NCBI GenBank assembly: GCA_016867315.1
Contig: VGJV01000002.1
Coordinates: 1-49,385, forward strand
DNA from: Candidatus Liptonbacteria bacterium
Lineage (GTDB): Bacteria > Patescibacteriota > Minisyncoccia > UBA6257 > 2-01-FULL-56-20
Length of the DNA: 49,385 nt
Direction: 5' to 3'
Under the pieces are notes generated by a model, which made no database searches, was not told the DNA's origin, and saw only the letters and a list, made by a program, of their open reading frames with translations. Below are positions 1 to 37,583 of the stretch, piece after piece. Positions within the stretch are counted from its first letter, which is position 1. Each line of letters begins with the position of its first letter. The position numbers and the translations under genes are program-made.

Positions 1-5
1 TTAAA

Positions 6-97
6 AGCCGCAGTTTGATGCAGGCGCTCGTTTTTTGGATGCTCAAGGAACAACTCCAGCTTAAAAGCTGGAGTTTTAGTCAAGTTCCTTGACATAA
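6..97. repeat. Palindromic scaffold element, copy 1 (5'-truncated by the window edge; apparently lacks both double-hairpin inserts)
   Basis: Matches 16040-16067 plus 16118-16181; stems tcaaggaac/gttccttga and aactccagct/agctggagtt. Confidence 0.9.
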
Positions 98-219
98 TAA
101 TGGACTCTATTGATCCAGAAATCACTCCAATTATTTCTGCTGCTCATACAGTAGGTATGGATGGAATCGTGACTTTTAGCGCAGTCAGAATTTATGATAT
201 TGATGCTTTGATGCCCTGA

Positions 220-4514: not shown

Positions 4515-4527
4515 TCTCCACAATCAC

Positions 4528-4694
4528 AAAAACGATGCGCCACCTCGGCTTAAACCTCGAGGATGTGAATCCTCGATGGCAGTCAGGAATCTAAGATTCC
4601 TGATGAGCCGAGGTTTGTTGCAGGCGCTCGTTTTTGGAGATGCTCGGGAACCACCACACCTTGAAAGGTGTGGTTTTCATCGGTTCCCGACATA
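4528..4694. repeat. Palindromic scaffold element, copy 2, with one double-hairpin module (4555-4605)
   Basis: Stems aaaaacga(t)gcgcc/ggcgctcgttttt, acctcggct/agccgaggt, tcgggaacc/ggttcccga, accacacct/aggtgtggt; homologous to 15960-16180. Confidence 0.92.
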
Positions 4695-4697
4695 AGA

Positions 4698-4705
4698 TTT
4701 AAAAA
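4698..4705 (+). promoter_or_regulatory. Archaeal TATA box
   Basis: aagaTTTAAAAA beginning 29 nt upstream of ATG 4727. Confidence 0.55.
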
Positions 4706-4726
4706 ACTTGCTGAAAACACATCTTT

Positions 4727-5212
4727 ATGAAATTAACACATAAAAATGATTCTGATTCATGGAATGTCTGGATGAGATTGAAAGACAAGAAATATCTCCC
4801 AAGAACAAGCATAGTCCAGTTTAAACCTGAACCTAGGTTGTATGATCAAAATATAATGGTGAGCACTGTCCATAATCAGGACTTCCTTGCTGCTTCGGGA
4901 AATAGCCTTCTCCTTGCACGCCATTATCCTATTGATCATGCGGATATCACTTCTAATCACGAGGCTCTGATTCTTAATAACGAGTGCTATCCAGAAGGGT
5001 TAATATTGACATCAGACTTGCAACTATCTTTATCGTCGAGAGAAAAAAGTAAAATTAATATTCTCCAATTACTTGGTAACCCTGATGATTCTTTTATCAG
5101 ACGTTTCTTTTTTACGCATAATCATGTAATGGTACAAAAACCACATTATCTCTCAAGAGGGCCGGTACTCTTGTATGCAAAAAGAGGTAATGCTGAGTAT
5201 ATACTCAGATAA
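4727..5212 (+). CDS. Hypothetical protein
   Basis: 161-aa ORF with a TATA box upstream; no recognisable motif. Confidence 0.6.
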   Translation: MKLTHKNDSDSWNVWMRLKDKKYLPRTSIVQFKPEPRLYDQNIMVSTVHNQDFLAASGNSLLLARHYPIDHADITSNHEALILNNECYPEGLILTSDLQLSLSSREKSKINILQLLGNPDDSFIRRFFFTHNHVMVQKPHYLSRGPVLLYAKRGNAEYILR

Positions 5213-5229
5213 ACAAAGTTTTCGACAGG

Positions 5230-5237
5230 TTTAAAAA
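5230..5237 (+). promoter_or_regulatory. Archaeal TATA box of rpl15e
   Basis: TTTAAAAA beginning 29 nt upstream of ATG 5259. Confidence 0.55.
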
Positions 5238-5258
5238 GCATTTCTTGCTGAAAAAAGG

Positions 5259-5831
5259 ATGGCAACAGGATTATATCATCAATTAAGACAGGTATGGAAA
5301 AAGCCGAGCAGAGAGATGATTCATGGAAGAATGATTCAATGGAGGGCCGGTGAAGCCGCTGTTGTAGTAGAGAAACCAGAGCGCCTTGACAAAGCCCGTG
5401 CCTTGGGTTATAAAGCTAAAGTAGGTTTTGTAGTTGTAAGGATTCGTGTTAAGAGAGGAGGACGCCAAAGGCCTCGCCACAAACATGGAAGAAAAAGCAG
5501 AAAGCAGCATGTAAGAAAGATTCTGAAGATGAATTACAGATGGGTCGCTGAGATTAGAGCAGCAAGAAAATATCCTACATTGGAAGTCCTAAACTCATAT
5601 CCTCTTGGTAAGGATGGAAAATATTACTTTTACGAGGTCATCCTTGTAGATCCTTCTAGACCTGAGATTAAGAATGATAATGTAATCAACTGGATATGTA
5701 ATCCGTCTAATCGAAGAAGGGCAGAAAGAGGATTGACCAGCGCAGCTAAGAAGTCTCGTGGCCTGAGGACAAAGAGCCCAAACATGAAAGTGCGCCCAAG
5801 CCAGAGAGCCTGGGGAAGAAAAGGCAAGTAA
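5259..5831 (+). CDS. rpl15e: 50S ribosomal protein L15e
   Basis: RLDKARALGYKAK.G, LEVLNSY, YEVILVDP, RGLTSA.KKSRGL. Confidence 0.97.
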   Translation: MATGLYHQLRQVWKKPSREMIHGRMIQWRAGEAAVVVEKPERLDKARALGYKAKVGFVVVRIRVKRGGRQRPRHKHGRKSRKQHVRKILKMNYRWVAEIRAARKYPTLEVLNSYPLGKDGKYYFYEVILVDPSRPEIKNDNVINWICNPSNRRRAERGLTSAAKKSRGLRTKSPNMKVRPSQRAWGRKGK

Positions 5832-5925
5832 TTATCATTCTGATAGTCCTCCACTTTATTGAAGCAAATGTCTCTGCTTTCAGTAATAGAAATATCTAAA
5901 TACCTTAAGTAAGTCTCTGAAGCCT

Positions 5926-6195
5926 ATGAAATATTTACTGGCTATTTTGAGGGAGGTAGATGAAATATATGACGCTTTTATGGACGATATCGCCAAGGGT
6001 TATTTATTTAAGAAAAGCCTGGCTAGAAGGATCTACTCTCTAGATGAACTTAATTCAAGAGGTTGCAAGATTTCTGTAGGCGAAGGTCCTACCATTATAG
6101 AACAAGGAAGGATGAGAAGATATAATGCCAATCATAAAGATGATGGTCAATATGAAGTTTTGTCGGACCCTTTTACTCCCTGGTTTAGAGATTGA
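5926..6195 (+). CDS. Hypothetical small protein
   Basis: 89-aa ORF filling the gap and abutting the topA stop. Confidence 0.5.
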   Translation: MKYLLAILREVDEIYDAFMDDIAKGYLFKKSLARRIYSLDELNSRGCKISVGEGPTIIEQGRMRRYNANHKDDGQYEVLSDPFTPWFRD

Positions 6196-8538
6196 TTACT
6201 CAGATTCGTCCTCTTTTTTCTTGACTTCTCTTTCTTGTCTCTTTTGCGTCTCAATAGGGCATTCAGGATTGAAGCAGAATTCCCACGGTCTCTTGCCTTT
6301 CCTTATTGCAAGAAGTCTAGGAAACTGGTCGGCAGGACATAATTTTTCGGATCGTTTTATAAGTGAATTAGGGGGCAATGAAAAGGTCTGTCTACAATCA
6401 GGATATTTTGTGCATCCAATAAAATATCTACGAGTCTTCTTGGAATAAGTTATCCTCAATTCTCCTTTCTTACATAATGGGCAAGGCATCAATGTATTTG
6501 CCGCTTGCTGGTCTGCTCTCATGGTTTCCACGCCCTTGAGCAACTCTTTCCCTATCTCAGTTTCCTTAGCTTTGAATTCTTTGGATATATCAGTTATTAA
6601 TCTCTTGGCCTTCTCCAAAACTTCTTTCTCTTGATACTCAAAATTGCTTCTGCTTTCCTGTACTTTTTCAAGTTCTTCTTCAAGCTGCCTAGTCAGGCCC
6701 TCATCTATTATTATGGGGGAGTACTTCTCTAGTGCCTCTATTAACCTGATACCTAATTGTGTGGCTTGTATACTTCTACCGTCTAAATATCCTCTGTCAA
6801 ATAGCGTGTCTACTATAGCTGATCTAGTAGCCTTGGTTCCAAGATTCTTTTTTTCAAGTAATGTTATCAGTGATGTTGGAGTAAACCTTTTGGGAGGTTG
6901 TGTCTCTTTCTCAGATATTTCCACATTGTCCACTTTTACTCTGCCACTAATTTCGGGGAGAGACTTCTCTTCAAAGGATGTTGGATATACTCTGCTCCAT
7001 CCACTCTCTATTAATATGCTTCCAGAGGCGGTGAAAGTTATGGCTCTTTCTTTGATATCTTCTTCTGTCTTTTCATCCCCATCTTCATCTTCTACTCTTG
7101 AGGGTGCAGGTTTAGGAGTGTACATTATAGTTTTTCCCTTGGAATCTAAAGCTGTCAATGTGATTCTAGTAGTGGCGGTCTTCATGTCTGGAAAGAAAGC
7201 TGAGATAAATCTCTTGACTATCAATGAATAGAGTTTTTCATCGTTGCCTGACAATGAAGCATGCTCTCCTGTCGGATATATCGAAGGATGTGCCGGATCT
7301 GATTTTTTCCCTTCAACAGGATAAGGCCTAGATGCGTTTTTTGCTTCAGGAAAATATCTTTCTAAAGATTTTAATATTTTTCTTGGCTGTATCTCCTTTG
7401 GAATCTTCTGGCTAGATGTCCTTGGATAAGATATAAGACCTGCAAGATATAGCTTTTGTGCTATTTGGAGAGTCCCAGATGGAGAGATTTTATAGAACCT
7501 ATAAGCCTCTCTCTGCAAGGTAGTAAGATCAAATGGAAAAGGCGGAGGAGTATTTTCCTCTCCCTTCTTAGTCTCTGCGTTTGCCTCTTTTATACCCTCA
7601 AAAAATTTAAGATGTGCTTTATCAAAAATATCTAAGGGATGTTTGAAAACAAGACCACTTGAATGCGCATATGCTTCCCAGTAAGGTAAAGGCTTAAATT
7701 CATTTATCTCTCTTTCTCTGTCTACTATCAACTTTAATGCTGGTCCTTGGACTCTTCCTATAGATAATATCTTGAAAGATCCAGATGTTTTTATCGCGGA
7801 CATGAGTGCTCTAGATAAGTTTATTCCATACAACCAGTCAAGTATATGTCTTGTCTCTCCAGCATATGCATTTCCCCAATGAGGCTCAGGAAGAAGGTTT
7901 TCATATGAAGACTCAAGCTCAGGAGCAGTTAACGTAGAATATTTCATTCTTTTCGCGGTTTTCTGCTTACATATGAACCTAAGTACATTCCAGCCTATTA
8001 CTTCTCCTTCTACATCGAAGTCAGTTGCAATCACAATCTCTGATGCCCTGTAAGAAAGTTTCTTTAGAAGATCATAGTATCTTTTTGTGAATGCCGCTGA
8101 CTTTGTAGCATAAGATGGTTGCCATTCCACATTAAATATCGGCCATCCTTTCTGGCCAGCAGAGTAGGTCAGATTGAAAAGATGACCAACTGCAGAAGCA
8201 ATCACGACTTTCCTGCCATTTCTCTCAAGTTCAAAGTAAGATACTCCGTTCTCAGTTATTTTTTTTGAGTTTCCAAGCGCATTTGCAATCTTCTGTGCAG
8301 CTTGAGGTTTCTCAGTTATTATCAAGAGAATGTCTTTCTTTAGACTTATATCGGAAGGATCTGCTTTCTCAGTCTTCTTCCTTCTCTTTTTCTTAACATC
8401 TGGTATGTCCTCAAGTCCCTTTAGGTCCTTTCCAGGAGACTCTATCGTTGTAAGCTCGGCCAGGCTAGGTTTCTGCCTAACTTGTTTCTCAATAGTCATT
8501 TTGACATCTCCAGGTCTCAAGAATGCTTCTACAGCCAT
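6196..8538 (-). CDS. topA: DNA topoisomerase type IA (archaeal TopA/TopoIII)
   Basis: TOPRIM EKP and DFDVEGE, SIGRVQ, catalytic ISYPRT, LGTKATR, C-terminal Zn ribbons. Confidence 0.95.
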   Translation of the reverse strand: MAVEAFLRPGDVKMTIEKQVRQKPSLAELTTIESPGKDLKGLEDIPDVKKKRRKKTEKADPSDISLKKDILLIITEKPQAAQKIANALGNSKKITENGVSYFELERNGRKVVIASAVGHLFNLTYSAGQKGWPIFNVEWQPSYATKSAAFTKRYYDLLKKLSYRASEIVIATDFDVEGEVIGWNVLRFICKQKTAKRMKYSTLTAPELESSYENLLPEPHWGNAYAGETRHILDWLYGINLSRALMSAIKTSGSFKILSIGRVQGPALKLIVDREREINEFKPLPYWEAYAHSSGLVFKHPLDIFDKAHLKFFEGIKEANAETKKGEENTPPPFPFDLTTLQREAYRFYKISPSGTLQIAQKLYLAGLISYPRTSSQKIPKEIQPRKILKSLERYFPEAKNASRPYPVEGKKSDPAHPSIYPTGEHASLSGNDEKLYSLIVKRFISAFFPDMKTATTRITLTALDSKGKTIMYTPKPAPSRVEDEDGDEKTEEDIKERAITFTASGSILIESGWSRVYPTSFEEKSLPEISGRVKVDNVEISEKETQPPKRFTPTSLITLLEKKNLGTKATRSAIVDTLFDRGYLDGRSIQATQLGIRLIEALEKYSPIIIDEGLTRQLEEELEKVQESRSNFEYQEKEVLEKAKRLITDISKEFKAKETEIGKELLKGVETMRADQQAANTLMPCPLCKKGELRITYSKKTRRYFIGCTKYPDCRQTFSLPPNSLIKRSEKLCPADQFPRLLAIRKGKRPWEFCFNPECPIETQKRQEREVKKKEDESE

Positions 8539-8742
8539 ATTAAATCAGAGAATAGCTTCTATTTATAATTGACTTAAAGGCTAAAAGAACAAATTTGCTG
8601 GGCCAACATGAAAAAGCCAAAAGTTCTGGTCCAGAACTTGTTCAACGCAATTTGAGAACCTGCTTAATACTGCTCTCACACATACAGAAGCGCGCAAAAG
8701 AGTAACCTTATAAACTTTAATTCTTTTAAGAAATTAGTAAGA

Positions 8743-9531
8743 ATGATAATGAAAACAAAAAATAGATATTTCAAAAATATTGAATTTTCAAATCATAAAC
8801 TTGGTTTATACGATGTAAAAACGTTTATCAAAGATTGGGGTTCTGAACCACGAAGAGGCGTAGCTGAAGGGAGAAGCAGAATTGTGAAAAAGAATGGAGA
8901 CAAAGTCCTAGAAATAACTATTCCAAGGGGAACATTGAGTGATGGAGGGTCTTTTTGGAGATTACTCTTTCCAAAAGATTTCCTAAATGTAACATTTGAA
9001 TATGATGTTCTATTTGGAAAAAATTTTGATTTTGTTAGAGGCGGTAAACTCCCTGGAATCGGTGGTGGATTGTCAAATGGATGCGGAGCAACTCCAGATG
9101 AATATCAAAACGGCTTTTCAGCAAGATTAATGTGGAGAGTATTAAACTTCCATAATAAACACCTAATAAAAGACTCTCACAAGGCATACTTGGTTCAGTA
9201 TATGTATTATCCAGATAGGCATCCATCAAAAAAATTCGGTGAAGATTTAATTTATAGATATAAGGGCAGAAAGATATTCGTAAAATCTAATAAATGGTAT
9301 AAACTTAAAACAAACATAAAACTATCAGAAAACCCAAAAAGAAAAGATACAATCACGGCCTATGTAAATGGAAAAATGGTTTTAAATAAGAAATTAAATC
9401 TTAGAAAAAAGACTACCTATGGGATTAATCAGATAATGTTTAGTTTATTTTTTGGTGGTGGAGAACCAAGTTGGGCTACGAAAAAGAAAGAGAAAATATA
9501 CTTTAAAAAATTTATAATTGAAGGAAAATAA
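8743..9531 (+). CDS. Polysaccharide lyase family 14-like protein
   Basis: FDFVRGGKLPG, GFSARLMWR and FSLFFGG motifs typical of PL14. Confidence 0.75.
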   Translation: MIMKTKNRYFKNIEFSNHKLGLYDVKTFIKDWGSEPRRGVAEGRSRIVKKNGDKVLEITIPRGTLSDGGSFWRLLFPKDFLNVTFEYDVLFGKNFDFVRGGKLPGIGGGLSNGCGATPDEYQNGFSARLMWRVLNFHNKHLIKDSHKAYLVQYMYYPDRHPSKKFGEDLIYRYKGRKIFVKSNKWYKLKTNIKLSENPKRKDTITAYVNGKMVLNKKLNLRKKTTYGINQIMFSLFFGGGEPSWATKKKEKIYFKKFIIEGK

Positions 9532-9740
9532 CGATCTTATTTTTGAAAAAAACAGCACGCTCTTCCGTCCCCACTTACAAAAATAGAAGATATAAATTTC
9601 ATTAATCGCGAAAGAAAAAACTCCTTCGCTCCCTCATATTTTTTGATATTCATATTTCAGTAATCACAACAATAAATAGATAACAGATAAACACAGCAAA
9701 TAATTCGATATCCTAATTCTAGGAAATTGAGACCGAATGC

Positions 9741-10091
9741 TTACCTTAATGCAGAAAGCTTTTGTTTTATCCTATTTATCTCTAGGTCCAAAGCAAGGAC
9801 TTTGTCTTGCTGCTTAGAATGAACTTCTTTAACATGAGAAGTATTGATATGTTTTGATTTTTCTACTTTTATGCTTGCCTTAGGCAATAGAGATTCAAGA
9901 TGGTTCAATGATGACATGACATCATCAGCAGATTTCTTAAGCGCCACTTTGAGCATAAATTCTTCTTTTCTCAGTCTCCTATATTCATTATAATGTTTCA
10001 TAGCATTGAGGATAAAAAACTGTGATTCAAGGAGGCTTTTCTTTCCATACTTTAACTCTTGAGGGCCAAGCCTAATATATTCCGTATCCAT
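9741..10091 (-). CDS. Hypothetical coiled-coil protein
   Basis: ORF directly downstream of 10093-10785; ATG (MDTEY) chosen as start. Confidence 0.65.
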   Translation of the reverse strand: MDTEYIRLGPQELKYGKKSLLESQFFILNAMKHYNEYRRLRKEEFMLKVALKKSADDVMSSLNHLESLLPKASIKVEKSKHINTSHVKEVHSKQQDKVLALDLEINRIKQKLSALR

Positions 10092-10092
10092 A

Positions 10093-10785
10093 TTAATCAA
10101 CCTTCTCAAAAAGTGCCTTGCTTATCTCATCTATCCTCGATTTTGCTTGCACCATATCTTTCTCCCATGCAGAAAACTCTTGCTCCTCTCTCATCTTTGT
10201 CTCTCTTATCTTCTTCAAAAGACTGTCTACACTTTCAAGCTGGTTTTGCACCATGCTTAATGCTCTTCTTGCAGAGTGGAACTTATCTATTTTTACAAAA
10301 ACATCAGAGCTGCGACTCGAAGATGGATAAGGGGCTGGCTGAGATACAGGTTCAACTATAATTGGTCTAGGCTCTGGCACAGGTTCTGGCAAAGTTTCTT
10401 CCCTAGGTGGAGGCAATAATGAGGTATTCTTTACAGATGCTCTAGATGCAAGAATAGGAGAAGAGGCAAGGGGCGACTCGTCATCTACTTCTACTACCTT
10501 GAAAGACTTAGGTTCTTGAGCGACACCAACTATCTCTGCGTCCTTAACAGAATCATTTACAATAGCATCCTTAATTGCTGCTTGTGAGAAACCTTTCGTC
10601 ATAGGAGAATCAGGAAAGGAAGGAAGCCCATGCTTCTCTGTAGGAGAAGTGTCATCACTCTCTTCATTTTCAGGCATTCCAGGCATGGCTGATGGCGAAG
10701 CAGGCAGAGGAGTCTTTCCCTGTAAACCTGGCTTCATAGGAGGTAGATCCGGTAACTGCTTATCGTCTTTTTTACCCCAAAACAT
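10093..10785 (-). CDS. Hypothetical protein, Pro-rich N-terminus and C-terminal coiled coil
   Basis: LPDLPP and LPSFPD motifs; VFVKIDKF followed by a coiled coil. Confidence 0.75.
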   Translation of the reverse strand: MFWGKKDDKQLPDLPPMKPGLQGKTPLPASPSAMPGMPENEESDDTSPTEKHGLPSFPDSPMTKGFSQAAIKDAIVNDSVKDAEIVGVAQEPKSFKVVEVDDESPLASSPILASRASVKNTSLLPPPREETLPEPVPEPRPIIVEPVSQPAPYPSSSRSSDVFVKIDKFHSARRALSMVQNQLESVDSLLKKIRETKMREEQEFSAWEKDMVQAKSRIDEISKALFEKVD

Positions 10786-10878
10786 ACCAATAGGTTTTAA
10801 AATTAATTTATATAGCTTTATATTAATTATTTAATAGTAACACCTTTTCGAAACATTTTTAATCAAACTTTTTCAAGG

Positions 10879-11556
10879 ATGGATATGCAAATAGATCTTC
10901 TTAAAGATATTGTAGGTTCTGTCGCTGGAGAGAAGGCTAAATCTATAGTCGACCTCCTTCATCAGAAGAAGAATGTGAACGAATTTCTCGTGGCCAAGAA
11001 GCTGAAGCTTACTATAAATCAGACTAGGAACATCCTTTACAAGCTTGCTGACGAGGGGCTTGTAAGTTTTGTCAGGAAAAAAGACACGAAAAAAGGAGGC
11101 TGGTACACATATTTCTGGACACTCAACATAGAAAGGGGCCTGGCAAAATTCAAGGAGTACTTGCACAGTCTGATAAATTCTGAGAGACAACAAATACAAG
11201 TAAAGAAAACCGAGAAATTCTTCTTTTGCCCTAACTGCCAGATAGAGATGGGAGAGGAGCAAGCACTATCGATACAATATACCTGTCAGGAATGCGGAAA
11301 GACTTTTGAATTGAAGGACAACTCAAAGGAAATTATGGCTCTTGAGAAAGAGATTGTTAAGCAGGAGAAGATACTCAATGATTTAGATAAGGAGTTGGAC
11401 ATAATAAATACTCAGCAAAACAAGGCAAAGGCAAGAAAGCTCAAGGCAGAAGAAGTGAAAAAGAAAAAGGAGAGAGAAGAGAGGAAGAAGCAAAGAATTG
11501 GAGCGAAAAAGTTAAAGGAGAAGAAGAATAAGCCAAAAAAGCGGAGATCTAGTTAA
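10879..11556 (+). CDS. tfe: Transcription factor E (TFIIE-alpha homologue) with basic C-terminal extension
   Basis: wHTH (RNILYKL..GLV, GWYTYFW), CPNC..CQECG Zn ribbon. Confidence 0.9.
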   Translation: MDMQIDLLKDIVGSVAGEKAKSIVDLLHQKKNVNEFLVAKKLKLTINQTRNILYKLADEGLVSFVRKKDTKKGGWYTYFWTLNIERGLAKFKEYLHSLINSERQQIQVKKTEKFFFCPNCQIEMGEEQALSIQYTCQECGKTFELKDNSKEIMALEKEIVKQEKILNDLDKELDIINTQQNKAKARKLKAEEVKKKKEREERKKQRIGAKKLKEKKNKPKKRRSS

Positions 11557-11559
11557 ACC

Positions 11560-12393
11560 ATGCCTCGTTATCAGCATAGAAATAGATCCAGAAAAAGTTT
11601 GTACAATTTCAGGACCACAACTTGGTTGATAATTACTAATGTATTAATATTCTACATCCTATTCTACTTAGCACCAGAATCTTCAAGATATATCCTTCTT
11701 CAAGGAAAACAGATAATCCAAGGTGAAGCCCTATGGACTTTGCTCACAAGTATGTTCATGCATCAAGGCCTCTTACATCTTTTTGTGAACATGTTCTCGT
11801 TGTTCTTCTTAGGGAATTTCTGTGAACAGCTGATTGGCAAGAAGAGATTCATATGGTTATACCTTCTTGCAGGCCTTTTTGCCGGAATCTTTTTTGTACT
11901 AGGCACAATCATAGGATCAGGTATTCCATGGGGTCCAAGAGTTTTTGGAGACATCAACGCGATGGCAGCAGGAGCATCAGGTGCACTATTTGGACTTTTG
12001 GGGCTCTTGGCCATGTTGGTACCAAGATACAGAGTCTATCTTATCGTGGGTCCAATCATAGTATTTGTCTTACTTGCCATAATTGATACACTCCCACAAT
12101 CGCCGGCCATATTCATAATAAATATCTTACTCAACATAATCCTGTTCGCCATGATATTCTCATTATTTATGCCTTCCAAGAATCTCCGTAAATTTTCAAT
12201 ACCAGTAGCATTACCTATGTGGTTTGCCCCTGTTGTTGCAATAGTGCCTCTGATAGTCATCAGTTTTGCCATAGACCTGCCTATCGGGAATAGTGCCCAC
12301 TTGGGAGGCCTACTATTTGGATTGGCATATGGGACTTATCTAAGATTAAAGTACCCTCAAAAGATGCTGCTTCTCAAGAGGTTTTTCAGATGA
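11560..12393 (+). CDS. Rhomboid family intramembrane serine protease
   Basis: TSMFMH..HLFVNM, GASG catalytic Ser, AHLGG catalytic His. Confidence 0.92.
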   Translation: MPRYQHRNRSRKSLYNFRTTTWLIITNVLIFYILFYLAPESSRYILLQGKQIIQGEALWTLLTSMFMHQGLLHLFVNMFSLFFLGNFCEQLIGKKRFIWLYLLAGLFAGIFFVLGTIIGSGIPWGPRVFGDINAMAAGASGALFGLLGLLAMLVPRYRVYLIVGPIIVFVLLAIIDTLPQSPAIFIINILLNIILFAMIFSLFMPSKNLRKFSIPVALPMWFAPVVAIVPLIVISFAIDLPIGNSAHLGGLLFGLAYGTYLRLKYPQKMLLLKRFFR

Positions 12394-12980
12394 AGAAGAG
12401 GCGCAGTCTATTGTCAAGGCTCAAATCATGGGCAAGTGAAGGATTAGAATATTTGAAAGAAAGCAGGAGATACATTTACCTTTCAGCAGCATTATTTATT
12501 TTATTCATTGTTATTGGTTTTTGCTTTGCTGATAAGCTAACAATCTTGGACAGTGTGATTAAAGAGATGAGAGAGAGTGTTTCAGGTCTTGATGGAAAGG
12601 ACCTGACTCGCGCAATTTTTTTATCAAACATACGCGCAGCATTTTTCTCTCTCTTCCTCGGTATATTGATGGGCATATTCACAATATTCAACATAGCCCT
12701 CAATGGGACCTTGATAGGGTATGTTATAAACGCCCTGTGGATTGATTCCGGATTTACTCATTTATGGAAACTTCTACCACACGGAATATTTGAATTGCTT
12801 GCGTTGTTTATAGCATGGGGTCTAGGCATAAGGTTAGGAGCATTTATTTTCTCAAAGAATCCCGGAAAAGATTTGAAGAAGAGACTGATTGGATCAATAA
12901 AGGCATTTACATTTATAATAATCCCTTTGCTTTTCATAGCTGCAATAATTGAAGGTCTGCTCATTGCATTCATCGCATAA
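12390..12980 (+). CDS. SpoIIM-like (DUF95) membrane protein
   Basis: IF..N, NG..IG, LPHGIFEL and AAIIEG motifs. Confidence 0.85.
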   Translation: MKKRRSLLSRLKSWASEGLEYLKESRRYIYLSAALFILFIVIGFCFADKLTILDSVIKEMRESVSGLDGKDLTRAIFLSNIRAAFFSLFLGILMGIFTIFNIALNGTLIGYVINALWIDSGFTHLWKLLPHGIFELLALFIAWGLGIRLGAFIFSKNPGKDLKKRLIGSIKAFTFIIIPLLFIAAIIEGLLIAFIA

Positions 12981-13059
12981 CTCAGCCATTAAGAACTCTG
13001 TTCTTGAGGTTTCCTTACAAGTTCACAATATTTAAAACATCAAGAAATAACCAACTTAT

Positions 13060-13584
13060 ATGGATCTTACAAAAGAAAGCGTTGAAGAGATTGACGCAGA
13101 GCGAGACATGGAGAATACCAAAAAAGTCGAGGCCGCATTGTTCATCTCGGGCAGGTTCCTTTCATTACAAGAACTTGTGGCCTTAACAGATGTAAACCCT
13201 CTTCTTCTTAAGAAAATACTTGAGGATCTTGTAGACAAATATAAGAGTTCGGGTATATCCGTTATCCAGCAAGACAGTCTTTGGAAGATGGACGTCTCAG
13301 AAGAATATACTTGGATGGTCAATAAACTTGCCACAGGAAGTTCTGAATTCAGCAAGGCGGAGCAAGAGACTCTCGCCATAATTGCTTATAAGCAGCCAAT
13401 GAAGCAGTCTGTGCTTGTCAAGATTAGAGGCAACAAATGCTATGATCACATAAGAAAATTCACAGATATGGGTCTAATCAACAAGAAAAAAATGGGTCAC
13501 ACTGCAGAAATATCATTAAGCTCCAGTTTTTATGAGTATTTCCACCTTCCTCAAGGAGAAGAATTGCCAAGGCAGGGAGAGTGA
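13060..13584 (+). CDS. scpB: SMC-Scp complex subunit ScpB
   Basis: VEAALF, ETLAIIAYKQP, IRG motifs. Confidence 0.9.
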   Translation: MDLTKESVEEIDAERDMENTKKVEAALFISGRFLSLQELVALTDVNPLLLKKILEDLVDKYKSSGISVIQQDSLWKMDVSEEYTWMVNKLATGSSEFSKAEQETLAIIAYKQPMKQSVLVKIRGNKCYDHIRKFTDMGLINKKKMGHTAEISLSSSFYEYFHLPQGEELPRQGE

Positions 13585-14845
13585 GATCTTGAATTTCTAC
13601 CACATCCTTACATATATCTTGGTCTATTTGGGCCTTTTTGCTACTTCATTTTATTTACTAAGTCTTTTCTCTTATTATAGAAAACCTCGGAAGACTACTG
13701 ATAAAAAATTCTCAGTAAGTATAATCGTACCTGCGTTCAATGAAGAAAAAACAATATCTAAGACCCTCCAATCTTTGCTTGAACTAGACTATCCTAAAGA
13801 CAGAATGGAGATAATCGTTGTTGATGATGGTAGTACAGATAGCACATACTCGCAAGCAAAAAGATTTGAATCTAATATTGTCAGAGTAATTAGGAAAGAT
13901 AATGGTGGCAAAGGCTCTGCCTTAAATGCAGGCATAAAAGTCGCGAAAGGAGAACTTATTGCTTCCATGGATGCAGATAGTTTTGTCCAAAAAGACGCCC
14001 TTAAAAAAATGGTTGCTCTTTTCTATAATGATAGCGTCATGTCAGTAGCTCCATCCGTAGGAATAATCGAGCCAAAAGGCATACTGAGAAGAATACAGCA
14101 TATTGAGTATGCAATGGGAGTATTCCTCAGGAAATCATTCTCAACTCTCAATGCAATCCATGTCACTCCGGGAGCATTTTCACTCTATAGAAAAATATTT
14201 TTTGACAAATATGGCGGTTACGACGAGCATAATATTACAGAGGACCTTGAGATTGCCCTGCGTATCCAAAGCAAAGGATACGTTATCGAAAATGCAGAAG
14301 ATGCAGTAGCATATACCAGGGGCCCAAGATATTTTAGAGAGTTGATGATACAAAGAAGAAGATGGTATACTGGACTTGCAAGAAATCTCTGGAGATACAA
14401 GAGCTTATTCGGTCCATCAAGAGGTCCACTTGGGACATTGGTCCTTCCGGCAGCAGTGATAGCCATAGTTCTGCCGATGATATTGGTAATATATCAAGTA
14501 ATAAAGAACCTTGACGATATAAGGAGAAACATCATACTCTTGCAGTCTATAGATTTCAGATTCAAGGACCTTTGGGAATATAACAGTTATATCTTTGAAC
14601 AGATAATATTGTCATCATTAAGCTATCCCTTGTTCCTCATGAGTCTTCTTTTTCTGGCACTTCTTGCAGGATATCTTATATTCGCCAAGAGGATCACAGG
14701 TTTTAAGGAAAGATGGCAATTGAATTTTGTCTTGTTCTTCCTCCTGTATTATTTTCTTTTTGTGTTCTGGTGGATAGTATCTACAGCCTATCTTATATTT
14801 AACAAGAAAGTTATATGGAGGAAAGAGAAGCATGAAGCAGGATAA
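13581..14845 (+). CDS. GT2 membrane glycosyltransferase (processive, cellulose/hyaluronan synthase-like)
   Basis: PAFNEE, DDGS, DAD, TED, QRRRW; start probably GTG overlapping the scpB stop. Confidence 0.88.
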
Positions 14846-15479
14846 TTCAATTTATCTTAGAAGATACATCTATTCATTCTTTATAGCAACATTTCTTTTC
14901 ATCTTGGTATTCGCGATAGCTGACTCATTCACACATATAAGTTATGAGAGAAACGCCAGGGAAAGTGAAGTCATAAGATCGTACATAACAGACCTCAATG
15001 GATATTTTAAGGAGCAGAGTTGCAGTGACCAACTGATTTTTGATGCTTCATTAAAGCTAGATAATGTGGGAAACAGGATAGACTTACTTGAAAAAAGATT
15101 TGGAAAATCTGATCAAAGAGTAGTGACTCAGAAGAAGCAATATGCAGAATTGCAGCATACTCATTATCTCATAATCCAAAGACTGAACAAATATTGTGGA
15201 GCAAAATTTATCACGGTACTATATTTCTATACTCAGGCCAAAGAAGAGAGCGATGCAAATGAGCAGGCTTCTTTCATCTTGAACGCGTTCAAACAGGAGA
15301 GTCCTGAGAGAATAATGATATATGCATTTGACTCCAGTATAGGGTCGGGAATTGTAGGCAACCTTAAGACCTGGTACAACATTACTTCAACCCCTTCTGT
15401 CTTGGTGAATCAAGAAAATAAGATAGATAAATTGACCCATATTTCACAGCTAGACCCATTTTTAAAAGAAGTAAGATAA
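14832..15479 (+). CDS. Membrane-anchored protein with C-terminal thioredoxin-like fold
   Basis: N-terminal TM helix; LYFY...YNITSTPSVLVN; no CxxC. Confidence 0.65.
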   Translation: MKQDNSIYLRRYIYSFFIATFLFILVFAIADSFTHISYERNARESEVIRSYITDLNGYFKEQSCSDQLIFDASLKLDNVGNRIDLLEKRFGKSDQRVVTQKKQYAELQHTHYLIIQRLNKYCGAKFITVLYFYTQAKEESDANEQASFILNAFKQESPERIMIYAFDSSIGSGIVGNLKTWYNITSTPSVLVNQENKIDKLTHISQLDPFLKEVR

Positions 15480-15627
15480 ATTGTCGTTCTCAAGAAGTAT
15501 CACCTAGTTACCCTTTTAACAAGTCATCTTAGAATTGTTACTGCCTTAGATGACAAACTTGCAGAAAGATTTAAAAGCAGACCGCAGATGTAATATATAG
15601 GATACAATATAACCATTACAATATACC

Positions 15628-15903
15628 ATGGCAGAAATTCGAGATAATTTTGATATATTCTTTAGAAGAAAGCCAGCCTTGCTCCTAGTAGCATTAAAGA
15701 GGCTTGCAAGAGCAAGATATGGTAGTGTCCTTGCAAAAGAAGTTGATTGTACCTACAGCCACGCCGTCAAGATATTACAATCTCTCGAAAAACTAGGTCT
15801 AGTCATGTTTGAGAAGAAAGGCCGCATCAAGCTTATCAAGCTCACCAAAAAAGGCCAGGAAATCGCTGATAATATTGAGAATGTGAAACGCCTTGTTGGT
15901 TAA
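15628..15903 (+). CDS. Winged-helix DNA-binding protein (MarR-like)
   Basis: LAKEVDCTYSH, GLV, KKGR..LTKKG. Confidence 0.85.
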   Translation: MAEIRDNFDIFFRRKPALLLVALKRLARARYGSVLAKEVDCTYSHAVKILQSLEKLGLVMFEKKGRIKLIKLTKKGQEIADNIENVKRLVG

Positions 15904-15959
15904 TTAATTCTAAAATTAATTGGTTATATCTCTTTTTTAAACATCTATTCTTAAAAATC

Positions 15960-16180
15960 AAAAAAACGATGCGCCACTGCGGCTTAAACCTCGAGGATGT
16001 GAATCCTCGATGGCAGTCAGGAATCTTAGATTCCTGATGAGCCGCAGTTTGATGCAGGCGCTCGTTTCACCAAGAACATTGTTCTTGGATGCCATCAAGA
16101 ATAGAAGATTCTTGAGGTTTGGATGCTCAAGGAACAACTCCAGCTTAAAAGCTGGAGTTTTAGTCAAGTTCCTTGACATA
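15960..16180. repeat. Palindromic scaffold element, copy 3, with two double-hairpin modules in opposite orientations (15989-16039, 16068-16117)
   Basis: Homologous to copies 1 and 2; abuts the tRNA-Lys 3' end with a 3-nt gap. Confidence 0.92.
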
Positions 16181-16183
16181 AAA

Positions 16184-16405
16184 TGGCCTCGAGGGGATTT
16201 GAACCCCCGACACCTGGATTTCCTAAGAAACCTACGGTTCGTCAAGGACGAAGTCCTTGAGCACGCTCAGGAATCTTTGATTCCTGACGTCTTGTGGGTC
16301 AACTTCCCTCAAGAAAATGCCTTATGTCCCCGAGGAGGGTTCATAAGGGTAACGTAGTTCCCTTATTAAGAGTCCAGTACTCTGACCGGGCTGAGCTACG
16401 AGGCC
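16184..16405 (-). tRNA. tRNA-Lys(CUU) with a 147-nt intron at 37/38 (16220-16366)
   Basis: Acceptor GGCCTCG/CGAGGCC, D arm GCTC/GAGT, anticodon stem CTGGA/TCCAG with CT-CTT-A, T loop GGTTCAAATCC. Confidence 0.9.
16241..16289. repeat. Double-hairpin module, GCACG-linker subtype, inside the tRNA-Lys intron
   Basis: gtcaaggac-gaa-gtccttga gcacg c tcaggaatc-ttt-gattcctgac; same layout as 18493-18548. Confidence 0.8.
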
Positions 16406-16441
16406 ATAAAACACAAAGCAAGAGATGATTTAAAAAAGTAT

Positions 16442-16765
16442 CTAGAGTAATTTTATTCTATAATTATTAATGGCATTTCTGAAAAAATCTCTTACGGAGT
16501 GTTCAGAGGGAAAATCAAAATGACTGCATAATTTTGAAGGAGTACTGCCAATAAGAATATGATATAATAAAAAGCTATCGACATCAGGGTATTTTAATTG
16601 CAGATCTCTGGCAAAATCTCTTCTATTTTTATCAAATACCCTGTCCTCATCTGCACTAGCCAATTCTTCAAACTGAGTCCTAACATGATGCATCTCTAAA
16701 TTTTCCTGTGACGTCAGGCCTCTCGCCTCAAGTGCTATCCAATATCTTCCTATATCCCATTCCAC
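16442..16765 (-). CDS. Hypothetical protein
   Basis: 107-aa ORF with GTG start; no motif recognised. Confidence 0.55.
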   Translation of the reverse strand: MEWDIGRYWIALEARGLTSQENLEMHHVRTQFEELASADEDRVFDKNRRDFARDLQLKYPDVDSFLLYHILIGSTPSKLCSHFDFPSEHSVRDFFRNAINNYRIKLL

Positions 16766-17880: not shown

Positions 17881-18459
17881 ATGGACTTTGATTCAGTTAT
17901 AGACAAGAGGCACTCTGTAAGAGCTTTCAAAAATAAGAAAGCAAGTTGGAAGCTCGTATTAGATGCAATTGATGCTGCAAATCAAGGGCCATTTGCAGAT
18001 AACATAAACCCGCTTAAGTTTCTGATAATCGAAGAGCAGTCTACAATTGACAAGGTCTCGGAGCTATCAGGACAACTATGGATAAATGAATCAAGTATTT
18101 TAGTCATAGTCTGTTCAGATGATACTCATCTTGAACACCTTCACGGCCAGCGTGGAAAGAGATATTCAAGGCAACAATCTGGGGCAGCCATAAATACCTT
18201 CATTCTAAAATTAACAGACCTAGGCCTCTCATCATGCTGGGTAGGGGCATTCACAGACGATCTAATAAAGCAACATCTCAAGATTCCAGGACATATTGAA
18301 ATAGAAGCAATCATCCCTATTGGTTATGAAAAGACAAAAAGCAACAAAAGAAGGAAAAGACCTTTGGAAAACACTCTCAATTGGGAATCCTGGGGTTCCA
18401 CAAAGCGCCCCTCATTATTCAACGAAGATGCTCCCGACCCAGATTTGATAGAGTCGTGA
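17881..18459 (+). CDS. Nitroreductase family protein
   Basis: RHSVRAF, GLSSCWVGAF, IIPIGY. Confidence 0.88.
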   Translation: MDFDSVIDKRHSVRAFKNKKASWKLVLDAIDAANQGPFADNINPLKFLIIEEQSTIDKVSELSGQLWINESSILVIVCSDDTHLEHLHGQRGKRYSRQQSGAAINTFILKLTDLGLSSCWVGAFTDDLIKQHLKIPGHIEIEAIIPIGYEKTKSNKRRKRPLENTLNWESWGSTKRPSLFNEDAPDPDLIES

Positions 18460-18463
18460 TCAC

Positions 18464-18618
18464 TCCTGCAGATGAAACTCAACTTTCATCCTGTCAAGAA
18501 CTTTGTTCTTGAGCACGATCAAGAATTGCGTTAAACCAATTCTTGACGCATCAGAGTTTTTGAAAAAAATTACTGATGGGATGATATTATTCCTGCAGAT
18601 GAAACTCAACTTTCATCC
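18464..18618. repeat. 28-bp direct repeat (18464-18491, 18591-18618) enclosing a hairpin cassette
   Basis: tcctgcagatgaaactcaactttcatcc occurs twice; double-hairpin module at 18493-18548 lies between. Confidence 0.9.
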
Positions 18619-18976
18619 CATCGGGATCCTTAGTGAATATGGCAGTTCCACCGTATCCATCATCAGTTATTCCATTATCTTCCATTTCTATTCCCATTTT
18701 ACGTAAGGTTCCCTCTATTTCATCCAAGTCTTCTCTGGTATCAATCTTAAAAGCCCAGTGATTTAGTCCTAGTTTCTCAGGATCAAAAGTCTCGTCTTTT
18801 CCAATTACCAATTGAGAATTCGCGAGCCATAGTGAAAACATTCCATCGGTCAAACCACAAACATCTTCCTCATCATGCATTACTTCCATCCCACATACAT
18901 CTCTGTAGAAATCACGTGATTTAGAAATATTCCGCACAATCAAAGTAATATGATGAACTCCAGTTGTTGTAACCAT
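18587..18976 (-). CDS. VOC/glyoxalase family protein
   Basis: HHITL.V, FY..V.G, H.AF, F.DPDG..VEF. Confidence 0.9.
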   Translation of the reverse strand: MVTTTGVHHITLIVRNISKSRDFYRDVCGMEVMHDEEDVCGLTDGMFSLWLANSQLVIGKDETFDPEKLGLNHWAFKIDTREDLDEIEGTLRKMGIEMEDNGITDDGYGGTAIFTKDPDGMKVEFHLQE

Positions 18977-19126
18977 AAGTAAAAATGAAAAAGAAGATAA
19001 TTAAACCTTTTTATTTTTTAATTAATACCTTAACAAAACTCTTCGAGTTTTAACCTCTACCTAAGGTAGAGGATTTCTACGAGCGTTAATAAAACCAAAA
19101 TTTTCAAATTGTTACATATAAATCAA

Positions 19127-19145
19127 GGAGCCTCTTTCGAGGCCC
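19127..19145 (-). terminator. Putative hairpin terminator downstream of ftsZ
   Basis: gcctc-tttc-gaggc stem; minus-strand T tract at 19154-19167. Confidence 0.35.
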
Positions 19146-19191
19146 CTCAAGAGAAAAATAAAAAAAAGGGAAGTTAATAAGAACTTTGTCT

Positions 19192-25737: not shown

Positions 25738-25898
25738 GTACCACAATTTCTTTTAGAAGAGATTTGTTTCATGCATGATGCTGAACAAGTACATAAATTC
25801 CCAATTTAGATTGGAAAGCAACTAGAGGAAATAGGTAAATTAAGAAGTAATAATTCAAAGGCATTTTCATTTAACCATCCTTCTCTTAGACTATCACT

Positions 25899-26005
25899 AA
25901 AACGATGCGCCACTTCAGATTCATTATAGAAGAAGTTAATCTTAAATGGCAGTCAGGAATCTTAGAATCTTGATGAGGTGTGTTTTTGGTCGATTCTCAA
26001 CATAA
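25899..26005. repeat. Degenerate palindromic scaffold element, copy 4
   Basis: Retains aaacgatgcgccac, tggcagtcaggaatcttag and ttgatgag; abuts the aspS stop. Confidence 0.75.
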
Positions 26006-27400: not shown

Positions 27401-27462
27401 GCCAAATCCAAATAAACGCGCTTTTTAACCCTTTTCTTTCAGAAAACCTTACTTTGTTAAGA

Positions 27463-27513
27463 TCTCAAAGTCTATCGGACTTTGATGGCCATCAAGGATT
27501 AATATCCATGAGG
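27463..27513 (-). repeat. Stand-alone double-hairpin module upstream of aspS
   Basis: Minus strand AAA|CCTCATGGAT-ATTA-ATCCTTGA TGGCCA TCAAAGTC-CGATA-GACTTTGA. Confidence 0.7.
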
Positions 27514-27547
27514 TTTCCTAAATCTTATTTTTAACCCTTATGCTACA

Positions 27548-34150: not shown

Positions 34151-34282
34151 CGGGTCCAGGAGGAATCGAACCCCCGTTACAGCGTTCCTTCGCTCCTTTC
34201 CAAAAGGGAGGTTGAACAAAAAGGAACAGTCGGGTTCCTTATACTCCGAAGCGCTGCGTTCTATCCACTAAACTATGGACCC
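34151..34282 (-). tRNA. tRNA-Arg(UCG) with a 60-nt intron at 37/38 (34186-34245)
   Basis: Acceptor GGGTCCA/TGGACCC; anticodon stem CAGCG/CGCTG; BHB central helix CUUC/GAAG with 3-nt bulges GGA and GAA. Confidence 0.92.
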
Positions 34283-37549: not shown

Positions 37550-37583
37550 AGAAAGTAAAAATTAGAAAATAGAAAGTAGAATG
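37550..37583. repeat. Heptamer array (AGAAAGT-like), inverted partner of 38502-38533
   Basis: AGAAAGT AAAAATT AGAAAAT AGAAAGT AGAATG. Confidence 0.6.

What the first reader, a model, noticed from the sequence alone, without database searches (positions are those of the whole stretch)
4528..16180. Dispersed multi-stem element with compensatory covariation (copies at 6-97, 4528-4694, 15960-16180, degenerate 25899-26005)
Seen: the copies keep the same secondary structure while stem sequences change in pairs. Examples are acctcggct/agccgaggt vs actgcggct/agccgcagt, tcgggaacc/ggttcccga vs tcaaggaac/gttccttga, and accacacct/aggtgtggt vs aactccagct/agctggagtt. Fixed motifs (aaacgatgcgcc...ggcgctcgttt, atgc...gacat) are conserved. 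Two copies start within a few nt of a minus-strand gene end (tRNA-Lys, aspS). Inference: a structure-selected non-coding family, either a REP/REPIN/PATE-like non-autonomous element or a structured RNA, that I cannot assign to a known family.
Basis: partly seen in the sequence, partly recalled or inferred. Interest (0 to 1): 0.85.

Follow-up and report, generated by a model that had tools for sequence, protein, structure and literature searches.

The report
Mosaic hairpin repeats in small archaea
A family of short, very strongly folding DNA repeats built from stacked hairpins is scattered between genes, in ribosomal RNA spacers and beside or inside tRNA genes of a small-genome archaeal lineage, and it looks like an archaeal counterpart of bacterial REP/BIME-type repeats rather than a new RNA gene.

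Summary
All four copies exist on the + strand. Copies 2 and 3 fold far better than shuffles (z -11 and -12). The stems covary. In 15 homologous copies from the window and metagenome contigs, 17 of 41 pairs changed on both sides (0 of 500 shuffles reached this). No Rfam family matches.

It is a modular, dispersed repeat, not a single RNA gene.
- Near-identical copies (99.4% and 96.5%) sit in unrelated flanks.
- A 51-nt twin-hairpin cassette is present or absent at one exact point. It is inverted in one copy and occurs alone elsewhere, sometimes with flanking direct repeats.
- Members lie in 16S-23S spacers, in tRNA trailers, in a tRNA T arm and in the window's tRNA-Lys intron.
- The 5' flanks share no sequence, so the element carries no conserved promoter.
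- Pairs are almost purely Watson-Crick, and both strands fold equally well. This points to DNA-level palindromy.
- Decayed and nested copies exist.

No transposase was found nearby, so the mobilising enzyme is unknown. The family is confined to a low-GC lineage. In this assembly it occurs only in the first 28 kb of a contig whose first 36 kb differ in GC from the rest of the genome.

Verdict: a REP/BIME/MITE-like mosaic palindromic repeat family in a DPANN-like archaeon. It is a new variant of a known kind.

The parts
1..100 (+). Copy 1. It is cut by the contig start and is the form without the twin-hairpin core: P2 3' arm, 3' bulge, P1 3' arm with T6, then module B ending GACATAATAA.
   Evidence: Same sequence as the second element of L064. 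Module B is identical to that of copy 3.
4522..4700 (+). Copy 2, a full element. Module A is 4528-4636: P1 and P2 stems, with the 51-nt twin-hairpin cassette at 4555-4605. Module B is 4640-4693.
   Evidence: Fold z -11.1. R1 131.4 bits. 99.4% identical to L064 over 4522-4693 with unrelated flanks. A contig joint 4554->4606 lacks the cassette in 4 of 4 runs.
15953..16183 (+). Copy 3, a full element. Module A is 15962-16070, two extra TCAAG-foot hairpins are at 16071-16120, and module B is 16123-16179. Its 3' end abuts the tRNA-Lys 3' end.
   Evidence: Fold z -12.0. R1 131.1 bits. 96.5% identical to L080 and L087 with unrelated flanks. R2 hits at 16065-16120.
25898..26005 (+). Copy 4, a decayed copy. 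The P3 hairpin is mutated, and a deletion runs from the P4 3' side into the module B upper stem.
   Evidence: z -0.25; 28.2 bits. A similar deletion form sits in tandem before a full copy in L087.
27422..27539 (-). A twin-hairpin cassette with its own short closing stem (27458-27527), inside a 94-nt insert flanked by 12-nt direct repeats (27422-27433 and 27528-27539). It lies upstream of the Asp/Asn-type synthetase ORF.
   Evidence: R2 65.9 bits, E 5e-16. Direct repeats. Sequence.
18459..18631 (-). A pair of TCAAG-foot hairpins (18493-18551) between direct repeats (18459-18504 and 18586-18631; 46 nt at 83%). The repeats duplicate the 3' end and stop codon of the glyoxalase-family ORF.
   Evidence: R2 29.4 bits. 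Repeats. Hairpins. ORF family. Sequence.
16184..16405 (-). tRNA-Lys(CUU) with a 149-nt intron. The 3' half of the intron holds two family hairpins (16242-16260 and 16267-16287).
   Evidence: Rfam tRNA 45.6 bits. Hairpins. R2 36.6 bits on the + strand.

Best explanation
**What it is.** This is a family of dispersed, non-coding, mosaic palindromic repeats of a low-GC, small-genome (DPANN-like) archaeal lineage. It resembles bacterial REP/BIME or hairpin-type MITEs.

**Building blocks.**
- Simple hairpins whose stem foot reads TCA(A/G)G...C(T/C)TGA.
- A 51-53-nt twin-hairpin cassette made of two such hairpins. The first is usually capped by a GNRA loop.
- A 'unit hairpin': an outer stem, a 1-nt 5' bulge, a lower stem, an upper hairpin with a UNAA loop, and a 7-9-nt 3' bulge starting UUU.

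**The full element (about 175-230 nt).** It runs from (A)ATCA-A5-7-CGATGCGCC to GACATAATAA. It is two unit hairpins in tandem, modules A and B. There may be extra hairpins between them, and the cassette may sit just 3' of the upper loop of module A.

**Shown.**
- Copies spread to unrelated sites.
- Cassettes nest, invert and delete.
- Copies decay.
- They avoid ORFs.

**Inferred.**
- The fold is kept because the folded single strand of DNA, or arm-to-arm templated repair of the palindrome, is what propagation depends on. An enzyme supplied in trans does the moving. An HUH/Y1-type transposase is my first guess, at low confidence.
- When transcribed, the very stable stems, flanked by an A run and a T run, probably end or insulate transcription and block 3' exonucleases. 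That would explain why they are tolerated in spacers, trailers, introns and between genes.
For: **Dispersal.**
- Copy 2 matches L064 at 99.4% over 172 nt. Copy 3 matches L080 and L087 at 96.5% over 229-233 nt. The flanks do not align.
- In 4 of 4 lake metagenome runs, summed contig depth over element bins is several-fold to about 20-fold that of neighbouring bins. Many contigs diverge exactly at the element ends: before 4523 and before 15953-15957, and behind 4700 and behind 16182-16183. This depth is not a copy number.
- A metagenome scan gave 28 loci with 29 matches, all family members on reading.
- R1 gave 53 matches at E<=0.001 in 222,800 bases. That count includes some opposite-strand re-hits of the same palindromic sites.

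**Modularity.**
- Forms without the core occur at L064:5324, L080:3410 and 3865, L087:1046, L085:1053 and L068:974.
- The exact 51-nt skip 4554->4606 is seen in 4 of 4 runs at depth 50-477.
- The core is inverted in L083. P4 carries nested inserts in L068 and L090.
- The inner part of module B is inverted in L065, L067 and L091.

**Decay.** Copy 4, and the same type of deletion in L087.

**Extragenic position.**
- Only 8 of 71 foot-motif hairpins lie inside ORFs of 90 aa or more, although such ORFs cover 75% of the loci.
- In the window, all members are intergenic or sit in the tRNA intron.

**DNA-level palindromy.**
- Outside two junction pairs there are 5 G.U cells against 7 A.C cells.
- Module B has 0 G.U and 4 A.C cells.
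- The sense strand is the more stable one in only 9 of 15 copies, with a mean difference of -1.1 kcal/mol.

**No shared promoter.** The 5' flanks are unalike upstream of ATCA.

**Orientation.** All P1-type copies in a contig share one strand: window 4 of 4, L080 3 of 3, L087 3 of 3.

**Lineage restriction.**
- Foot-motif hairpins: 7 in the first 36 kb, 0 in 50 shuffles, and 2 in the other 842,862 bases of the assembly.
- Strong R2 hits occur in 1 of 150 other genomes of the order and 0 of 150 of the phylum sample.

**Terminator-like flanks.** P1 is followed by 5 or more T in 14 of 21 copies. The next ORF downstream is convergent in 14 of 19 cases.
Against: **No mobilising enzyme found.**
- Y1_Tnp: 0 hits in this assembly.
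- TnpB zinc ribbon (PF07282): 0 hits in G000 and G100.
- No recurrent transposase among the 25 most frequent Pfam families of 136 ORFs from the loci. The other 107 families were not displayed.
- Of 10 ORFs next to elements, 8 have no family, 1 is a methyltransferase and 1 is a tyrosine recombinase.
- G100's three Y1-like ORFs have no family hairpins within about 1.5 kb.

**Ends and targets are unclear.**
- No terminal inverted repeats, and no clear target motif.
- No flanking direct repeat of 11 nt or more around full elements. Twin-hairpin-only inserts, in contrast, have direct repeats of 8-46 nt. One mechanism does not obviously give both.

**Features that would also fit an RNA-level role.**
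- Junction nucleotides are strongly conserved.
- The P3 loop is GNRA in 20 of 27 distinct copies.
- Modules lie in the sense orientation in the rRNA spacers of G100 (3 of 3) and L072 (3 of 3) and in the tRNA trailers.

**No filled-versus-empty orthologous site was found.**
Confidence: 0.6

Rival explanations
1. It is a family of structured non-coding RNA modules that act as RNA. For example, the three-way junction could be a docking or processing site for a protein or nuclease, used in pre-rRNA spacers, tRNA trailers and stand-alone transcripts. The dispersed copies would then be gene duplicates.
For: - Very stable folds, and covariation in all four helices of module A and both helices of module B.
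- Junction nucleotides are nearly invariant.
- The P3 loop is GNRA in 20 of 27 copies, with four GNRA variants.
- Modules lie in the sense orientation in the 16S-23S spacers of G100 and L072, and inside the 23S processing stem of L072.
- A hairpin 3' of ftsZ has 3 G.U pairs on the mRNA strand.
Against: - The 5' flanks share no sequence.
- Both strands fold equally, and G.U pairs are no more common than A.C.
- The core can be absent, inverted or interrupted without loss of the rest.
- Decayed copies exist.
- Near-identical copies lie in unrelated flanks.
- Not found at E<=1e-6 in 149 of 150 other genomes of the order, or in 150 of 150 of the phylum sample. It is therefore not a general requirement of rRNA processing.
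- The variety of GNRA loops is no more than single changes from GUAA would give.
Confidence: 0.2
2. Their main reason for being kept is as bidirectional transcription terminators or insulators and 3'-end protectors. This would make them host-beneficial elements rather than selfish ones.
For: - P1 is a long stem preceded by A5-7 and followed by 5 or more T in 14 of 21 copies.
- The next downstream ORF is convergent in 14 of 19 cases.
- Copies 1, 3 and 4 face the 3' ends of minus-strand genes.
- Archaeal RNA polymerase stops at oligo-T tracts (established knowledge, recalled).
Against: - 7 of 21 copies lack the T run, including copy 3.
- Module B and the cassette are not needed for termination.
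- Copies also lie at the 5' side of divergent genes, in 10 of 20 cases, and inside rRNA spacers, where termination would be harmful.
- A simple terminator scan did not flag them.
- This idea does not explain dispersal or nesting. It is compatible with the best explanation as a secondary use.
Confidence: 0.1
3. They are remnants of integrative elements that entered tRNA genes and other sites by site-specific recombination. The flanking direct repeats would be att sites, and the hairpins the leftover element end.
For: - Direct repeats duplicate tRNA 3' ends: 32 nt in G100, and 11 nt in L069/L078.
- A 28-46-nt repeat duplicates a gene's 3' end at 18.5 kb.
- A tyrosine recombinase ORF abuts an element in L073.
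- tRNA genes disrupted by integrating elements are described in archaea (PMC3293823, abstract read).
Against: - Full elements have no flanking repeat of 11 nt or more.
- The same modules occur at many unrelated sites, including hairpin loops, with no duplication.
- Repeat lengths differ at every site.
- No recombinase recurs near them.
Confidence: 0.05

Closest known systems
Bacterial REP sequences, BIMEs and REPINs (with RAYT transposases)
   Same: - Short extragenic palindromes with a conserved stem foot, clustered into mosaics.
- High copy number, with decay and turnover.
- The fold is kept by paired changes.
- Tolerated in transcribed spacers and 3' regions.
- REPINs are described as miniature mobile DNA in PMC3116915 (search listing and start of the abstract seen).
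   Different: - The host is archaeal.
- The foot motif is TCA(A/G)G/C(T/C)TGA, not the GT(A/G)G head (recalled).
- The units are larger and include a bulged two-tier hairpin and a three-way junction.
- Cassettes nest inside hairpin loops.
- No RAYT was found next to them.
IS200/IS605-derived non-autonomous elements (PATE-like)
   Same: - No terminal inverted repeats.
- No flanking direct repeat of 11 nt or more around full elements; shorter duplications were not scanned.
- Hairpins close to both ends.
- One orientation per contig.
   Different: - No conserved 4-5-nt target was seen on the left flank.
- No TnpA or TnpB partner was found.
- The structure is far more elaborate than two end hairpins.
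Transposed tRNA introns of Thermoproteales (Fujishima et al. 2010, as cited in PMC4090602; passage read)
   Same: [quoted passage not shown] Examples are the window's tRNA-Lys intron and the tRNA-Leu T arm of L074/L077. The gain is thought to happen at the DNA level.
   Different: - Most members here lie outside tRNA genes.
- No bulge-helix-bulge motif was seen at their own borders, by eye only.
- The lineage is different.
Hammerhead ribozyme
   Same: The window copies carry GUC, a hairpin, then CUGAUGAG next to a three-way junction.
   Different: - The GAAA strand is missing.
- GUC and GAU pair with each other.
- Relatives read UUGAUGAG or UUGAAGAG.
- Rfam Hammerhead_3 scores 14.9 bits against a threshold of 48.5.

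Membership tests
REP / BIME / REPIN | Short imperfect palindromes, extragenic, in many copies | tested here: met
   - Hairpins of 19-28 nt with a common foot: 7 in 36 kb against 0 in 50 shuffles.
- 8 of 71 lie inside ORFs, although ORFs cover 75% of the loci.
- Element bins show several-fold to about 20-fold higher summed depth in 4 of 4 runs. This is not a copy number.
REP / BIME / REPIN | Mosaic clusters of units | tested here: met
   - Tandem units, extra hairpins, and nested and inverted cassettes.
REP / BIME / REPIN | A cognate RAYT (Y1/HUH) gene flanked by the repeats | tested here: not met
   - PF01797: 0 hits in G000.
- 3 hits in G100, with no family hairpins within about 1.5 kb.
- tblastn with the G100 ORF found nothing better than E 1.2 in the 28 loci and G000.
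- The host genome is not available whole, so absence is not shown.
REP / BIME / REPIN | Conserved GT(A/G)G head at the 5' end of the palindrome (recalled) | tested here: not met
   - The foot is TCA(A/G)G.
IS200/IS605-derived MITE (PATE) | No terminal inverted repeats, no target duplication, hairpins near both ends | tested here: met
   - Ends are (A)ATCA... and ...GACATAATAA, which are not complementary.
- No flanking repeat of 11 nt or more around full elements. Shorter duplications were judged by eye only.
IS200/IS605-derived MITE (PATE) | Insertion 3' of a fixed 4-5-nt target; a parent element with TnpA/TnpB sharing the ends | tested here: not met
   - Left flanks are A/T-rich but share no fixed word.
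- No TnpA or TnpB was found. Sampling is limited to 36 kb plus 167 kb.
Classical MITE | Terminal inverted repeats plus a fixed-length target duplication | tested here: not met
   -.
- Direct repeats around cassette-only inserts vary from 8 to 46 nt.
Any Rfam family (including hammerhead, C/D and H/ACA sRNAs) | Score at or above the family's gathering threshold | tested here: not met
   - Only two tRNAs reach gathering score in the window.
- Across 15900-16450 at E<=10, nothing but the tRNA is near its threshold.
Archaeal bulge-helix-bulge intron | Two 3-nt bulges 4 bp apart at the borders of the inserted piece | not tested
   - Looked at by eye only. The unit has a 1-nt 5' bulge and a 7-9-nt 3' bulge around a 5-9-bp helix.
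- No dedicated search was run.

The most novel reading that the evidence does not exclude
The twin-hairpin cassette may be a new kind of small mobile insert in archaea. It would enter hairpin loops, rRNA spacers, tRNA trailers and tRNA bodies, and would be made harmless because the RNA-processing or splicing machinery removes it. If so, it would be a living source of the large tRNA introns and long rRNA spacers of DPANN-type archaea. The conserved three-way junction would be the handle for a so far unknown nuclease or recombinase.
Probability: 0.15. Interest if true: 0.8.

Novelty: new variant of a known kind. Interest (0 to 1): 0.55.

Why it matters
- REP/BIME-type repeats are a staple of bacterial genomes. 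My two paper searches found nothing on them for DPANN-type archaea: 0 papers hold both 'DPANN' and 'repetitive extragenic palindromic', and none of the 15 titles listed concerns DPANN. Those genomes are usually thought of as streamlined.
- A high-copy, modular palindromic family in such small genomes shows active small-scale genome turnover.
- The family breaks assemblies. The contig starts inside a copy.
- It marks a lineage that reference genomes barely cover.
- It offers a concrete case for asking how tRNA introns and rRNA spacers grow in archaea.
- It is also a warning. Strong covariation and a high fold z-score alone do not make an RNA gene.

Tried and rejected
**Ideas rejected on the evidence.**
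- Hammerhead reading of GUC...CUGAUGAG. Rejected.
- H/ACA (ACA after a hairpin) and C/D or K-turn readings. By eye there is no two-sided pocket and no tandem G.A pairs, and Rfam is silent.
- My own idea of a shared TATA-like promoter about 33 nt upstream (seen by eye in copies 3 and 4 and at the tRNA-Lys). Dropped, because 24 copies show unrelated upstream sequence.
- GNRA loops as proof of RNA-level selection. The loop is GNRA in 20 of 27 copies, but the variants are what single changes would give, so I treat this as neutral.
- Integron attC, retron, bridge-RNA and omega-RNA readings. Considered by eye and from recalled features only. No matching core sites or partner genes were seen.

**Searches that found nothing useful.**
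- Genome-contig scan with a P4-based pattern. All 19 of 19 hits lacked the element context: 12 share one conserved bacterial sequence that reads like a coding region, and the other 7 look like unrelated chance matches.
- Viral contigs: 0 hits. Phage and plasmid collections: no match.
- Simple terminator scan. The elements were not flagged.
- Topoisomerase I of the low-GC part against 150 genomes of the order. Only 27-39% identity everywhere, so the lineage is not placed. A protein of the high-GC part found one 61% relative.
- Sequencing runs: no RNA holder listed.

**Not examined or not available.**
- Weak R2 hits in G050, G096, G134, G147 and G188 were not examined.
- Supplements of the cited papers were not opened.

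Full report
**1. The observation**

- Copies 2 and 3 fold at -94.9 and -106.9 kcal/mol. Shuffles average -48 and -56 (z -11.1 and -12.0).
- The reverse strand of copy 2 folds almost as well (z -10.1).
- Copy 4 does not fold better than chance (z -0.25).
- The quoted compensatory stem pairs are correct.

Inside the window there are only two independent versions.
- Copy 1 is cut by the contig start, and its module B is identical to that of copy 3.
- Copy 4 is a deletion derivative of a copy-2-like element.

Rfam gives only two intron-bearing tRNAs at gathering score. Nothing else comes near threshold around copy 3.

**2. More copies**

BLAST and a covariance model of module A (R1) find no copy elsewhere in the 878,862-base assembly. 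They do find new partial members in the window:
- 27464-27516 (-);
- the tRNA-Lys intron.

A model of the twin hairpin (R2) adds 16065-16120 and 18493-18551 (-).

Among reference genomes the family is rare.

| Sample | Model and threshold | Other genomes with a hit |
|---|---|---|
| 100 relatives | R1, E<=1 | 1 (G100) |
| 150 of the order | R2, strong hits | 1 (G100), plus weak hits in 5 that I did not examine |
| 150 of the phylum | R2, E<=1e-6 | 0 |
| G100's family (4 genomes including G100) | R2, E<=1e-5 | G100 only |

Other collections:
- A pattern scan of genome contigs gave 19 hits, none with the element's context. Twelve share one conserved bacterial sequence that reads like a coding region, and the other 7 look like unrelated chance matches.
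- A scan of metagenome contigs with the invariant columns of the twin hairpin gave 28 loci with 29 matches. All were family members on reading, with GC 0.31-0.45.
- Viral contigs, phage records and plasmid records gave nothing.

**3. Covariation**

| Set | Cells paired | Pairs changed on both sides | Shuffles as high | Slid controls |
|---|---|---|---|---|
| Module A, 15 full copies | 96.0% | 17 of 41 (50 cells) | 0 of 500 | 1-3 pairs |
| Module B, 8 copies | 94.2% | 8 of 22 | 0 of 500 | 0-2 pairs |

The module A alignment was fitted to the model, which leans towards the structure. The size of the effect, and plain reading of the sequences, leave no doubt that the fold is conserved.

**4. Anatomy**

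Modules A and B have the same plan:
- an outer stem;
- a 1-nt bulge on the 5' strand;
- a lower stem;
- an upper hairpin with a UNAA loop, stacked on the 5' side;
- a 7-9-nt bulge starting UUU on the 3' side.

The full element runs from (A)ATCA-A5-7-CGATGCGCC to GACATAATAA.

Between the modules there can be extra hairpins whose stem foot reads TCA(A/G)G...C(T/C)TGA.

The three-way junction arises because a 51-nt twin-hairpin cassette sits just 3' of the upper loop of module A.
- Forms without it are common.
- Contigs from 4 of 4 runs join 4554 to 4606 exactly, at depth 50-477.
- The cassette is inverted in L083, and interrupted by further hairpins in L068 and L090.
- It is present in the upper loop of module B in L066. 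A single hairpin sits at that position in L086.
- The inner part of module B is inverted in L065, L067 and L091.

**5. Where members lie**

- In G100 three modules sit in the 16S-23S spacer, around tRNA-Ala.
- In L072 two sit between the 16S rRNA and the spacer tRNA. One sits just after the 23S 3' end, inside what I read as the 23S processing stem.
- In L069/L078 one follows tRNA-Lys(UUU) and is flanked by an 11-nt repeat of the tRNA's 3' end.
- In G100 a hairpin cluster follows a tRNA between 32-nt repeats.
- In L074 a module interrupts a tRNA-Leu(CAG)-like gene after the T loop. L077 carries a matching 3' end.
- In the window, the 149-nt intron of tRNA-Lys(CUU) holds two family hairpins.
- The inserts at 27.5 kb and 18.5 kb are flanked by repeats of 12 nt and 28-46 nt.
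- Full elements have no flanking repeat of 11 nt or more.
- Foot-motif hairpins avoid ORFs: 8 of 71 lie inside, against 75% ORF coverage.

**6. Mobile repeat or RNA gene**

For dispersal:
- Copies 99.4% and 96.5% identical have unrelated flanks.
- Many contigs diverge at the element ends, and summed depth rises several-fold to about 20-fold over the elements in 4 of 4 runs. This is not a copy number.

Against an RNA gene:
- Upstream sequences share nothing before ATCA.
- G.U pairs are no more common than A.C outside two junction pairs (5 against 7 cells).
- Module B has no G.U pairs at all.
- The two strands fold equally well.
- Parts can be lost or flipped.

For an RNA-level role there remain:
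- the conserved junction nucleotides;
- GNRA loops in 20 of 27 copies;
- the sense orientation in rRNA spacers.

I rate the selfish or semi-selfish palindromic repeat at 0.6 and the RNA-module reading at 0.2.

A use as terminator or 3' protector is plausible as a side effect.
- In its favour, 5 or more T follow P1 in 14 of 21 copies, and the downstream ORF is convergent in 14 of 19 cases.
- Against it, it does not explain the spread.

**7. How it moves**

This is not shown.
- No Y1/HUH, TnpB or recurrent transposase was found in the sequence available.
- G100's three Y1-like ORFs are not next to family hairpins.
- All P1-type copies of a contig share one strand: window 4 of 4, L080 3 of 3, L087 3 of 3. 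There are no terminal inverted repeats and no long flanking duplication. Single-strand (HUH-type) transposition would give this pattern, but that is an inference.
- Arm-to-arm templated repair could also keep the palindromes perfect without selection on an RNA.

**8. Context of the window**

- The first 36 kb of the contig have GC 0.39, against 0.49 for the rest of the contig and assembly.
- They carry second copies of MetRS, topoisomerase I and an Asp/Asn-type synthetase. They also carry the only L15e, TFE, TFS and ScpB.
- Family hairpins are about 80 times denser there than in the rest of the assembly.
- This part may come from another organism, or it may be a distinct region. I could not settle which.

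**9. Literature**

- No paper in the library holds both 'DPANN' and 'repetitive extragenic palindromic'.
- A wider search listed bacterial REP, REPIN and MITE papers only (titles and starts of abstracts seen).
- Intron transposition among Thermoproteales tRNA genes is reported by Fujishima et al. 2010, as cited in PMC4090602 (passage read).
- tRNA gene disruption by an integrating element is reported in PMC3293823 (abstract read).
- These two are the nearest archaeal precedents for the tRNA-linked members.

Noticed in passing
window 1-36000 versus 36001-49385: There is a sharp GC step from about 0.39 to about 0.49 near 36 kb. The low-GC part holds second copies of MetRS, topoisomerase I and an Asp/Asn-type synthetase, but also the assembly's only L15e, TFE, TFS and ScpB. 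This could be a chimeric join or a foreign region.
   Followed up: partly
window 34151-34282 (-): A second tRNA with a 63-nt intron. The intron contains an AAGGAAC/GUUCCUU hairpin resembling the lower stem of module B.
   Followed up: no
window 16224-16367: Contigs from 3 of 4 runs skip 142 nt, nearly the whole tRNA-Lys intron. Their depth is like that of the unique flanks. So an intron-less tRNA-Lys-like gene exists in the same communities.
   Followed up: no
window 19123-19150 (-): A 12-bp GAAA-capped hairpin lies just 3' of ftsZ. It has three G.U pairs on the mRNA strand and a TCAAGG-like foot on the opposite strand.
   Followed up: no
L080:1186-1458 (-): A group I intron at 81.5 bits in Rfam, on a contig that also carries three family elements.
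   Followed up: no
L072:5318-9449 (-): The 23S rRNA match spans 4132 nt against a model length of 2987, and encloses an ORF at 6899-7477. This is probably an insertion or intron in the 23S gene.
   Followed up: no
L092:1240-1962 (-), also L093 and L094 (G100): Three Y1_Tnp-like ORFs of 234-264 aa (read frames). One was translated: 240 aa, RAYT/IS200-like. No family hairpins lie within about 1.5 kb of any of them.
   Followed up: partly
L073:833-1744 (-): A tyrosine recombinase ORF (Phage_integrase, E 7.6e-46) overlaps the 5' end of a full element by 18 nt. It lies in the divergent orientation.
   Followed up: no
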